DNA of 63,982 nucleotides, counting the filler, from Perkinsus olseni (lineage: Eukaryota): assembly GCA_013115125.1 (NCBI GenBank). It is 3 parts of 3 records of this genome, joined end to end, with 100 filler letters (N's around TTAATTAATTAA, not from the genome) between each part and the next. Parts side by side here need not be neighbours in the genome. Positions count along the whole stretch, not along the records: positions 24,416 to 48,700 come from JABANN010000510.1; 2 more parts are not named here. One strand, given 5' to 3'. The notes beneath the pieces are model-generated. The model was given only the letters and a program-made list of their open reading frames with translations, was not told the origin of the DNA and ran no database searches. How positions within the stretch are numbered: position 1 is the stretch's first letter; each line of letters starts with the position of its first letter. Of this stretch, positions 48,108-48,190 are shown piece after piece. A program made the translations under genes and the position numbers.

Positions 48108-48190
48108 AGTTGCTTTGTTTCCTATGCCTGCTCGCGGTGCAACTGCCGACACCGGAGACGTCTGTTCTTCGGGGTCGCCAAAAGGAAACA
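48108..48190 (+). ncRNA. HDV-like self-cleaving ribozyme candidate
   Basis: P1 AGTTGC/GCAACT, P2 TGTTTCCT/AGGAAACA, P3 GCC/GGT, L3 TGCTCGC, P1.1 GC/GC, a P4 hairpin and J4/2 GCCAA occur in the correct nested order. Confidence 0.7.

What the first reader, a model, noticed from the sequence alone, without database searches (positions are those of the whole stretch)
48108..48190. HDV-like self-cleaving ribozyme at the 5' end of a LINE, with a covarying P1.1
Seen, in HDV order: P1 48108-13/48139-44; P2 48116-23/48183-90 (plus T48125-A48182, A48124 bulged); P3 48126-28/48136-38; L3 UGCUCGC; P4 48147-58/48166-77; J4/2 GCCAA with putative catalytic C48178. The usual CC/GG P1.1 appears as GC (48130-31)/GC (48145-46), a compensatory swap unlikely by chance. 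It lies where the host gene breaks off, 54 nt before the endonuclease ATG. Known: R2, RTE and L1Tc/ingi elements use HDV-like ribozymes to free their 5' ends. Inference: a ribozyme-led retroelement in this lineage, a variant I do not know as described. Caveat: P1 is 6 bp and starts A-U rather than the 7 bp G-U form.
Basis: partly seen in the sequence, partly recalled or inferred. Interest (0 to 1): 0.85.

Follow-up and report, generated by a model that had tools for sequence, protein, structure and literature searches.

The report
HDV-like ribozyme heading a Perkinsus LINE
A small RNA fold of the hepatitis-delta self-cutting type starts at the first base of a decayed jumping gene lodged in an intron of a Perkinsus (mollusc parasite) gene; this is a known trick of such elements, seen here in a new lineage with small departures from the textbook form.

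Summary
One detail is added: P4 has one A×G mismatch and one G·U pair.

- **Chance:** my own descriptor scan finds loose HDV-type folds at chance level, 31 real against a mean of 31.8 in 322 shuffles. This site's conserved-loop letters or its helix strength recur in only 6 and 9 of 322 shuffled windows.
- **Position:** paralogues of the upstream host gene lose similarity at 48107/48108. An independent relative of the element gains similarity at 48109. So the fold's first base is the element's first base, 8 nt into a host intron.
- **Conservation:** the codons over the ribozyme core are identical in 22 of 22 positions with that relative, against 71 of 113 in the endonuclease. Distal P4 is 1 of 6, with one change forced on both sides, G-C to A-U.

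Evidence against it:
- No Rfam match.
- A-U instead of G·U at the cut site, which cripples CPEB3 ribozymes (PMC8233481).
- The ORF of this copy is broken.
- No DNA relatives and no RNA data could be obtained.

Verdict: probably a genuine HDV-like 5' ribozyme of an APE-type LINE in Perkinsus olseni, a new member of a known kind. Cleavage is untested.

The parts
47558..48099 (+). Host gene exons. The gene belongs to a Perkinsus olseni family without a Pfam match (paralogues P0013-P0016). The last exon seen ends at 48099 in codon phase 1.
   Evidence: tblastn places P0014 residues 1-87 on 47558-47818 and residues 83-179 on 47808-48098. In the MAFFT alignment the last invariant column is I87, at 48093-95. 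No Pfam family matches.
48100..48107 (+). First 8 nt of the host intron (GTGGTAGA), starting with the GT of the 5' splice site. This is the last host-derived sequence before the element.
   Evidence: Paralogue P0015, whose gene model reads through this intron, shares GGR (3 of 3 codons, 48099-48107). Identity then drops to 7 of 30 codons. P0014 and P0016 splice here. The splice site itself is my inference.
48108..48190 (+). HDV-like double-pseudoknot fold, with predicted cleavage 5' of A48108. P1 48108-13/48139-44; J1/2 48114-15; P2 48116-23/48183-90 plus 48125/48182; P3 48126-28/48136-38; L3 48129-35; P1.1 48130-31/48145-46; P4 48147-58/48166-77 with loop 48159-65; J4/2 48178-81.
   Evidence: Pairings read. 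It is the only + strand hit of my descriptor.
48178..48178 (+). Putative catalytic cytosine, the first base of J4/2 and the equivalent of HDV C75.
   Evidence: It is the position directly after the P4 closing pair C48147-G48177. The role is inferred from the family descriptor quoted in PMC6326823.
48124..48126 (+). The first ATG of the element, in frame with the endonuclease. It lies at the P2/P3 junction of the ribozyme and is the likely start codon.
   Evidence: The gene models P0004, P0010, P0011, P0012 and P0007 all begin MPARGATA here. The BLASTP alignment starts at this M.
48195..48217 (+). Predicted 9-bp hairpin directly after the ribozyme, over the conserved peptide TAP.R.RAT. Its role is unknown.
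   Evidence: It appears in the MFE fold of 48060-48250. The peptide conservation is seen.
48244..48621 (+). N-terminal half of an APE-type (Exo_endo_phos) endonuclease domain of a non-LTR retrotransposon.
   Evidence: Pfam PF03372, E = 4.2e-07. Relative P0011 also matches PF14529, 'Endonuclease-reverse transcriptase'. 128 distant relatives align from about the RILNYNV motif onward.
48622..48700 (+). Break in the ORF. There is a stop at 48622-24, and endonuclease homology goes on in another frame (LTDERWEECVLDW). The contig ends at 48700.
   Evidence: Translation. BLASTP of the frame starting at 48600 against P0004 residues 164-184 gives 10 of 21 identical, E = 2e-05. The N runs and linker are shown.

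Best explanation
48108-48190 encodes an HDV-like self-cleaving ribozyme that forms the first 83 nt of an APE-type non-LTR retrotransposon (LINE) of Perkinsus olseni. The element sits in sense orientation 8 nt inside an intron of a host gene.

Proposed mechanism (inferred, not shown): the element is transcribed as part of the host pre-mRNA. The double pseudoknot folds, and C48178 acts as general acid. The RNA is cut 5' of A48108, which releases element RNA with an exact 5' end (5'-OH).

The element's ORF runs through the ribozyme. Its first AUG (48124) lies in the P2/P3 junction, so the fold may also serve cap-independent translation, as reported for other LINE ribozymes.

This copy is a decayed one, because its endonuclease ORF is broken. 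It has A-U instead of the usual G·U at the cut site, so it may cleave slowly or not at all. The claim is strongest for the element family.
For: - **Structure.** All helices are present in HDV order. So are the conserved letters named by a published descriptor (PMC6326823): the equivalents of U19, C21, C23, G24, G36 and Y35, the catalytic C, and A-A in J4/2.
- **Rarity.** Strict forms of my descriptor match this site alone in the window, and match 6, 9 or 0 of 322 shuffled windows. The decoy controls are clean.
- **Host junction.** Codon identity with paralogue P0015 is 66 of 88 in the exon and 3 of 3 at 48099-48107, then 7 of 30 after 48108.
- **Element junction.** Homology to the independent relative P0009 begins at 48109. 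An ungapped comparison of the 7 codons before that gives 0 identical (read).
- **Pattern of conservation.** Against P0009, codons are identical in 15 of 15 over P1 to the P4 base and 7 of 7 over the P4 3' base, J4/2 and P2'. That compares with 1 of 6 in distal P4, 8 of 14 in the linker and 71 of 113 in the endonuclease. Against P0004 the same regions give 9 of 10, 4 of 7, 1 of 5, 8 of 16 and 79 of 126.
- **A forced compensating change.** P0009's Gly-to-Lys and Ser-to-Leu changes force G48154-C48170 to become A-U.
- **Not part of the enzyme.** The N-terminal 44 residues have no counterpart in the 126 more distant endonuclease relatives.
- **No P1 extension.** A48107 cannot pair with G48145, so P1 cannot grow at the expense of P1.1. 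That was a known inhibitory case in L1Tc.
- **Precedent.** 5' HDV-like ribozymes are known in R2, R4, Dong, baggins and L1Tc elements (PMC3774820).
Against: - No Rfam family matches, even at E up to 10 on 101 to 301 nt.
- The cut-site pair is A-U, not G·U. In CPEB3 ribozymes G1A lowers co-transcriptional cleavage from 92% to 3% (PMC8233481).
- The outer P1.1 pair is inverted relative to the descriptor.
- The frame is open through the fold. The conservation was seen only as amino acids, so it could be selection on the protein.
- Only one both-sided change could be inferred. One P4 pair (48158-48166) is lost in P0009.
- No DNA of any second copy could be obtained, so there is no covariation at nucleotide level.
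- There is no RNA evidence. The raw RNA run laid gave 0 reads and so is no test.
- This copy's ORF is broken.
- An upstream stretch (48060-67) can pair with the 5' strand of P1 in the MFE fold.
- The strict filters of my scan were set after seeing the site.
Confidence: 0.75

Rival explanations
1. Chance look-alike. The stretch is simply a conserved N-terminal coding extension of the LINE protein (VALFPMPARGATA...PKGN) that happens to be able to draw an HDV-type fold. No RNA function is involved.
For: - The frame is open through the whole fold, and the gene models of relatives start inside it.
- All comparative evidence is at amino-acid level.
- Loose HDV-type folds occur about 32 times per window by chance.
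- Rfam finds nothing.
- The site departs from the published descriptor at 4 of 13 fixed positions.
- The scan behind this finding covers very many windows, so rare chance hits are expected somewhere.
Against: - A chance fold would not be expected to begin within 1 nt of the independently mapped host/element junction.
- The 22 of 22 identical codons sit exactly on the core helices, while distal P4 is 1 of 6. This peptide is better conserved than the catalytic domain, at 71 of 113.
- The peptide is absent from all more distant endonuclease relatives.
- Strict descriptor hits occur in at most 9 of 322 shuffles.
Confidence: 0.12
2. A structured 5' RNA element that no longer cleaves, or never did. 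The fold would serve translation initiation or binding of the element's own protein. The 5' end would be set some other way, such as an internal promoter or spliced-leader trans-splicing, which Perkinsus uses.
For: - A-U at the cut site is strongly deleterious in CPEB3.
- The AUG lies inside the fold.
- 5' ribozymes of retrotransposons are reported to promote translation (PMC13725137 citing Ruminski 2011).
- Perkinsus mRNAs are trans-spliced (abstract of PMC3101222, seen in the listing).
Against: - Every catalytic-core letter that the family needs is kept: the C first in J4/2, the U and G of the L3 reverse wobble, and the A-A of J4/2. That is not needed for a mere scaffold.
- P1 starts exactly at the junction, which is what a cleaving ribozyme predicts.
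Confidence: 0.08
3. The element extends upstream of 48108, for example as an ORF1 or a longer 5' UTR, so the fold is internal rather than terminal.
For: - The + strand is open in two frames across 47835-48263.
- One isolate's gene model (P0008) fuses the upstream ORF to the endonuclease.
- MAFFT with gaps aligns 3 of 4 codons upstream of 48109 between the window and P0009.
Against: - The upstream ORF belongs to a host gene family with four paralogue clusters that have their own, different C-terminal exon and no endonuclease.
- The codons that MAFFT matched to P0009 lie in the host exon, read in another frame as DVFIK, which is invariant or near-invariant in the paralogues.
- The ungapped comparison gives 0 of 7.
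Confidence: 0.03

Closest known systems
HDV-like ribozymes at the 5' ends of non-LTR retrotransposons: R2, R4, Dong, baggins (Eickbush and co-workers, PMC3774820; Ruminski et al. 2011, not held here)
   Same: - The same double-pseudoknot order at the very 5' end of the element.
- Release from a host co-transcript.
- P1 of 6 or 7 bp, P2 of at least 5 bp, a variable P4 and J1/4 of 0-2 nt are all within the R2 range (section 16 of PMC3774820).
- The ORF can be open through the ribozyme (recalled for R2).
   Different: - The host is a perkinsozoan alveolate, not an animal.
- The endonuclease is APE-type, whereas R2 has a restriction-like enzyme (recalled).
- The insertion is in an intron of a protein gene, not in rDNA.
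- The outer P1.1 pair is G-C and the cut-site pair is A-U.
- A conserved AUG lies inside the fold.
L1TcRz / Pr77 hallmark of the L1Tc/ingi clade in trypanosomatids (PMC3185411, PMC4035085)
   Same: - An APE-type LINE of a protist with an HDV-like ribozyme in its first ~77-83 nt.
- P1.1 departs from the two C-G pairs of HDV.
- It was missed by the original strict descriptor, a point made in PMC4035085.
- Upstream sequence can interfere with folding.
   Different: - L1TcRz has a single-pair P1.1 and doubles as an internal promoter.
- No promoter evidence was sought or found here.
- No sequence relationship was tested, because I held no L1Tc sequence.
CPEB3 intronic ribozyme of mammals
   Same: - An HDV-like ribozyme inside an intron, in sense orientation, so that cleavage competes with splicing.
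- Natural G1A variants exist and are slow (PMC8233481). That matches the A at +1 here.
   Different: CPEB3 is a conserved single-copy host element, not the head of a retrotransposon.
HDV genomic and antigenomic ribozymes (the type members)
   Same: - 3-bp P3 and a 7-nt L3 with the U...C-G letters.
- A 2-bp all-G/C P1.1.
- A 4-nt J4/2 of the form C-N-A-A. The antigenomic form has a pyrimidine second, C76 U77 A78 A79 (PMC2175327); here it is C C A A.
   Different: - One P1.1 pair is inverted.
- P1 is 6 bp and starts A-U.
- The setting is a genomic retroelement, not a circular RNA replicon.

Membership tests
HDV-like self-cleaving ribozymes | Nested double pseudoknot with P1, P2, P3, P1.1 and P4 in the order 5'-P1-P2-P3-L3-P3'-P1'-P1.1'-P4-J4/2-P2' | tested here: met
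   Pairings read, found independently by my descriptor, pseudoknot string.
HDV-like self-cleaving ribozymes | Cytosine as the first base of J4/2 (general acid, C75 equivalent), followed by an extruded base and two adenines | tested here: met
   C48178 C A A. The descriptor asks for C-R-R-A (PMC6326823). The second base here is C, as the antigenomic ribozyme has U. The catalytic role itself was not tested.
HDV-like self-cleaving ribozymes | L3 letters U19, C23 and G24 of the descriptor (the U·G reverse wobble that holds the metal ion) | tested here: met
   U48129, C48133 and G48134 at the matching places of a 7-nt L3.
HDV-like self-cleaving ribozymes | P1.1 pseudoknot between L3 and the bases after P1'. 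The descriptor fixes C20-G37 and C21-G36. | tested here: inconclusive
   Two Watson-Crick G/C pairs can form. The inner pair, C48131-G48145, is as in the descriptor. The outer pair is inverted (G48130-C48146). Natural active members carry U:A plus C:U, U:A plus U:U, or one pair, so pairing seems to matter more than identity. The inverted form was not tested.
HDV-like self-cleaving ribozymes | G·U (G1-Y) pair at the cleavage site | tested here: not met
   The pair is A48108-U48144. G1A is strongly deleterious in CPEB3.
HDV-like self-cleaving ribozymes | P1 of about 7 bp without mismatches | tested here: met
   6 Watson-Crick pairs. R2 ribozymes are 'typically 6 or 7 bp' (PMC3774820).
HDV-like self-cleaving ribozymes | Match to an Rfam covariance model of the clan | tested here: not met
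   0 matches at gathering score and 0 at E up to 10 on 301 nt and on 101 nt. These models cannot score the pseudoknots.
HDV-like self-cleaving ribozymes | Site-specific, Mg2+-dependent self-cleavage giving 5'-OH and 2',3'-cyclic phosphate | not testable with these tools
   No experiment was possible. The one raw RNA run laid had 0 reads on the stretch.
HDV-like self-cleaving ribozymes | Covariation in the helices among homologues | tested here: inconclusive
   No second DNA copy could be fetched. From protein relatives, one both-sided change is forced (G-C to A-U at 48154/48170), one terminal P4 pair is lost, and 16 pairs are fixed by unchanged amino acids.
Ribozyme-headed non-LTR retrotransposon | The ribozyme starts at the element's 5' junction with host DNA | tested here: met
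   Host paralogue similarity ends at 48107/48108. Similarity to the element's relative starts at 48109.
APE-type non-LTR retrotransposon (LINE) | N-terminal apurinic-endonuclease-like domain | tested here: met
   PF03372, E = 4.2e-07. PF14529 matches relative P0011.
APE-type non-LTR retrotransposon (LINE) | Reverse transcriptase domain downstream, plus a 3' tail and target-site duplication | not testable with these tools
   The contig ends at 48700. No close relative in hand carries RVT_1; only a 37%-identical relative, P0005, does. A 5008-nt public contig runs on from 48117, but its sequence cannot be read here.

The most novel reading that the evidence does not exclude
A dual-coding ribozyme. 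In this Perkinsus LINE family the HDV-type fold and the first ~27 codons of the ORF, including the initiator AUG at the P2/P3 junction, are the same nucleotides. One RNA module would then both cut the element out of a host intron transcript and place the start codon for cap-independent, spliced-leader-independent translation. The family-wide inverted P1.1 pair would be fixed by the two alanine codons. An A at +1 would give a deliberately slow cutter that spares the host gene in whose intron it sits, 8 nt from the splice site.
Probability: 0.2. Interest if true: 0.6.

Novelty: new member of a known kind. Interest (0 to 1): 0.4.

Why it matters
HDV-like ribozymes are an established way for LINEs without their own promoter to free an exact 5' end from a host transcript. 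Finding one in Perkinsozoa would extend that strategy to a deep alveolate branch. It would also give a natural example with an inverted P1.1 pair, an A-U cut-site pair and a start codon inside the fold, which is useful for loosening search descriptors and Rfam models that miss it.

In the held library, 'Perkinsus' plus 'ribozyme' gives 2 papers. Judged from their titles and abstracts alone, neither concerns a Perkinsus ribozyme; I did not read the passages that mention Perkinsus. The key surveys (Webb 2009, Ruminski 2011, Webb & Luptak 2011) are not held, and supplements are closed, so a prior listing cannot be excluded.

It also bears on gene annotation. Two public gene models of this locus treat ribozyme sequence as coding, or as an intron of a host-LINE chimera (P0007, P0008).

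Tried and rejected
- **Rfam.** Gathering scan of the whole window, and E up to 10 on 48000-48300 and 48100-48200: no ribozyme family.
- **Own genome.** Not held.
- **Other copies in the window.** None by pattern with up to 3 mismatches, blastn or tblastn.
- **Public runs, 4 laid at 80% likeness.**
  - X2 and X1 each gave one identical contig over the whole stretch and no second, diverged copy. X2 may be the source of this DNA, and 'RNA' for X1 is only a guess.
  - X8 gave two contigs with a hole at 47984-48116, which proves nothing.
  - The raw RNA run X21 laid 0 reads of about 12.9 million records read, so it is no test.
- **DNA relatives.**
  - A degenerate core pattern in viral contigs gave 3 hits (L001-L003). 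For 17 fixed bases I took these as chance and did not follow them.
  - A protein scan of metagenome contigs matched 191 stretches, none confirmed. The tool had chosen poorly conserved peptides.
  - A longer degenerate pattern in metagenome contigs gave 0.
- **Protein atlas** on the neighbouring DUF6740 protein, to place the organism: no usable hit.
- **Earlier findings of this scan.** Nothing for this genome or sequence. The word search returned only phage and virus HDV-like notes, which did not affect my reading.
- **Upstream similarity to P0009.** MAFFT's gapped 3 of 4 identity upstream of 48109 was rejected as an artefact, because those codons are host exon in another frame.
- **tblastn tails.** The tails of P0015 and P0016 running to 48197 and 48173 were rejected as low-identity extension. 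P0015 gives 7 of 30 identical after 48108, and P0016 is gapped there in MAFFT.
- **LINE clade.** Not attempted beyond 'APE-type', because 126 residues of endonuclease are too little.
- **First shuffle script.** It timed out and was re-run in a faster form.

Full report
**What the window is.** The 63,982 bases are three contigs joined by two linkers of N44-TTAATTAATTAA-N44: 1-24315, 24416-48700 and 48801-63982. The finding lies 500-600 nt before the end of the middle contig. A public protein (P0007) is 100% identical to the query over its aligned stretch, apart from a 15-residue segment that its gene model removes as an intron. Its source names it Perkinsus olseni, and it sits on a contig of 24,285 nt, the exact length of the middle contig. 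All named close relatives are also P. olseni. I therefore take the organism to be this perkinsozoan parasite of molluscs. No whole genome is held for the window.

**The observation.**
- P1 has 6 Watson-Crick pairs (48108-13/48139-44).
- P2 has 8 pairs (48116-23/48183-90), plus U48125-A48182 with A48124 bulged.
- P3 has 3 pairs (48126-28/48136-38, one of them G·U).
- L3 is UGCUCGC.
- P1.1 is G48130-C48146 and C48131-G48145.
- P4 is 48147-58/48166-77.
- J4/2 is C48178-C-A-A.

One detail is added: P4 has an A48151×G48173 mismatch and one G·U pair. A descriptor I wrote for the HDV topology returns these coordinates as the only + strand hit in the window. Pseudoknot-free MFE folding recovers P2 and P4 but is not remarkable: z = -1.64, and 16 of 200 shuffles fold as well.

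**Is it more than chance?**
- The topology alone is not rare: 31 loose hits in the real window against a mean of 31.8 (sd 6.2) in 322 dinucleotide-preserving shuffles.
- Adding the L3 letters (..C.CG.) and a J4/2 of C..AA leaves 1 real hit against a mean of 0.022 (6 of 322 shuffles have at least one).
- Requiring P2 of 7 bp or more, P4 of 8 bp or more and a span of 100 nt or less leaves 1 against 0.034 (9 of 322).
- Requiring 25 or more bp in P1+P2+P4 within 100 nt leaves 1 real and 0 of 322.
- Decoy descriptors with A or U at the catalytic position, and the reversed window, give 0 strict hits. The one G-decoy hit is this same site read with G48177 unpaired.

These filters were fixed after I had seen the site, and the L3 motif was first chosen from recall. 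It was later matched to the descriptor printed in PMC6326823. Given how many windows the scan reads, structure alone would not settle the matter. The context does most of the work.

**The surroundings: a host gene and its intron.** The + strand ORF upstream is a real gene.
- Four clusters of P. olseni paralogues (P0013-P0016) align with it.
- tblastn places P0014 residues 1-87 on 47558-47818 and residues 83-179 on 47808-48098.
- The paralogues continue with a C-terminal exon (LVGND...PMGSESLVI) that is nowhere in the window.
- From the sequence, the exon ends at 48099 in phase 1 and is followed by GT at 48100. The splice site is my inference.
- Paralogue P0015, whose model reads through this intron, matches the window in 66 of 88 exon codons and 3 of 3 codons at 48099-48107, but only 7 of 30 from 48108 on.

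So host-derived sequence ends at 48107, or at 48108: the next base is A in both, which leaves 1 nt of ambiguity.

**The element.**
- From 48244 the frame encodes the N-terminal half of an Exo_endo_phos endonuclease (PF03372, E = 4.2e-07).
- A close relative also matches PF14529, 'Endonuclease-reverse transcriptase'.
- An exhaustive HMMER search finds 128 proteins at E up to 0.001. Only two are close, P0007 and P0004. The rest align from about residue 37-50 of the query, that is, from the RILNYNV start of the enzyme. Of the 11 N-termini I read, several belong to long LINE-type proteins.
- This copy is broken. There is a stop at 48622-24, and the endonuclease similarity continues in another frame (10 of 21 identical with P0004, E = 2e-05). 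Two assemblies share the same truncated end (P0007 and P0008).
- The reverse transcriptase, 3' end and target-site duplication lie beyond the contig end.
- One public contig of 5008 nt continues from 48117, but I cannot read it.

**The frame runs through the fold.** The endonuclease frame is open back to 48082. The first ATG inside the element is 48124-26, at the P2/P3 junction. Gene models of the related family start exactly there (MPARGATA...). The 'ATG 54 nt downstream' is therefore probably not the start codon.

**Comparative evidence, at protein level only.** Two lineages are independent of this locus. P0009 comes from an assembled public run and is about 64% identical. The P0004 cluster has 4 members and is about 61% identical.
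- P0009 matches the window from 48109 onward. The 7 codons before that are 0 of 7 identical without gaps. MAFFT's gapped 3 of 4 falls on host exon and is an artefact.
- Codon identity with P0009 is 15 of 15 from P1 to the base of P4, 1 of 6 in distal P4 and its loop, and 7 of 7 over the 3' base of P4, J4/2 and P2'. It is 8 of 14 in the linker and 71 of 113 in the enzyme.
- With P0004 the same regions give 9 of 10, 1 of 5 (with a one-codon deletion), 4 of 7, 8 of 16 and 79 of 126.
- At a background of 63%, 22 of 22 identical has a probability of about 4e-05 (my arithmetic).

This pattern is an invariant core with a free P4, on a peptide that no distant relative possesses. It is what an RNA constraint predicts and is odd for a protein extension.

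From the amino acids alone, P0009 must carry A-U where the window has G48154-C48170. That is a change on both sides. P0009 loses the loop-proximal pair 48158-48166. The two alanine codons that fix the GC/GC P1.1 are kept in all lineages, so the inverted pair is a family trait. That is not covariation.

**What could not be had.**
- No nucleotide sequence of a second copy. At 80% likeness, the contigs of the run most likely to be the source hold only this copy. Scans of viral and metagenome collections found nothing usable.
- No RNA evidence. The raw RNA run gave no reads (no test), and contigs cannot show ends.
- So helix covariation at nucleotide level and cleavage in vivo both remain open.

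**Comparison with what is known.** 5' HDV-like ribozymes that free non-LTR elements from co-transcripts are established for R2, R4, Dong, baggins and L1Tc (passages and section 16 of PMC3774820; passages of PMC3185411). They are reported to promote translation (PMC13725137 citing Ruminski 2011).

Measured against the descriptor printed in PMC6326823, this site keeps 9 of 13 fixed positions. The four departures are:
- A instead of G at +1. This is the serious one. G1A drops CPEB3 co-transcriptional cleavage from 92% to 3% (PMC8233481), although HDV G1 mutants are said there to be tolerated in fast-folding backgrounds.
- G instead of C at the outer L3 base of P1.1, and C instead of G opposite it. 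These two compensate each other.
- C instead of a purine at the second J4/2 position. The antigenomic HDV ribozyme has U there.

The other features have precedent:
- A 6-bp P1 is normal in R2.
- P1.1 composition varies widely in active natural members.
- The original strict descriptor is already known to miss protist LINE ribozymes (PMC4035085).

**Mechanism proposed.**
- Shown: the fold, its position at the junction, the sense orientation in a host intron, and the LINE-type endonuclease.
- Inferred: transcription from the host promoter, co-transcriptional folding, cleavage 5' of A48108 by general-acid catalysis from C48178, and translation from AUG 48124 on an uncapped RNA.
- Speculative: A at +1 is either a decay mutation of this dead copy (G to A would turn G·U into A-U), or a slow variant tolerated 8 nt from a splice site.

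**Verdict.** Its 'covarying P1.1' argument is not shown. The ribozyme class and its role are known, while the lineage, the inverted P1.1 pair and the AUG inside the fold are new details. I rate it a new member of a known kind, of moderate interest.

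Noticed in passing
window 24316-24415 and 48701-48800: Two artificial linkers (44 N, TTAATTAATTAA, 44 N) join three separate contigs. Neighbours across them are not linked in the genome.
   Followed up: yes
window 48195-48217: A 9-bp hairpin is predicted right after the ribozyme, over a peptide (TAP.R.RAT) kept in all three element lineages. In the P0004 family a Cys-to-His change would force one C×A mismatch in it. 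Its role is unknown.
   Followed up: partly
window 48060-48113: In the MFE fold the host exon stretch 48060-67 pairs with the 5' strand of P1. This alternative pairing could slow ribozyme folding in the host transcript, as described for L1Tc clones and CPEB3.
   Followed up: no
window 47984-48117 (public run X8): In one public run the flank contig stops at 47983 (depth 66.5), and a 5008-nt contig starts at 48117 (depth 107.9), inside the ribozyme. This could mean a second context or allele that differs in the first 9 nt of the element. The tool warns that a hole proves nothing.
   Followed up: no
window 47558-48099: The host gene belongs to a small P. olseni family (P0013-P0016) with a hydrophobic, signal-peptide-like N-terminus and no Pfam match. 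Public gene models of this locus differ: one stops in the LINE, and one fuses the host exon to the endonuclease.
   Followed up: partly
window 49105-50814: A long ORF (569 aa) on the next contig matches Pfam DUF6740 over its whole length (E = 3e-141). It is unrelated to the finding.
   Followed up: no
window 15669-15741 (+), 28085-28156 (-), 30416-30495 (-), 57717-57788 (-): Four tRNA genes found by Rfam at gathering score.
   Followed up: no
window 48600-48640: The endonuclease frame breaks at a run of C's followed by GCGCTCTAGCGCC. Relative to the P0004 family there are about 11 extra bases between the VPP and LTDE motifs. Two assemblies share the same truncated end.
   Followed up: partly
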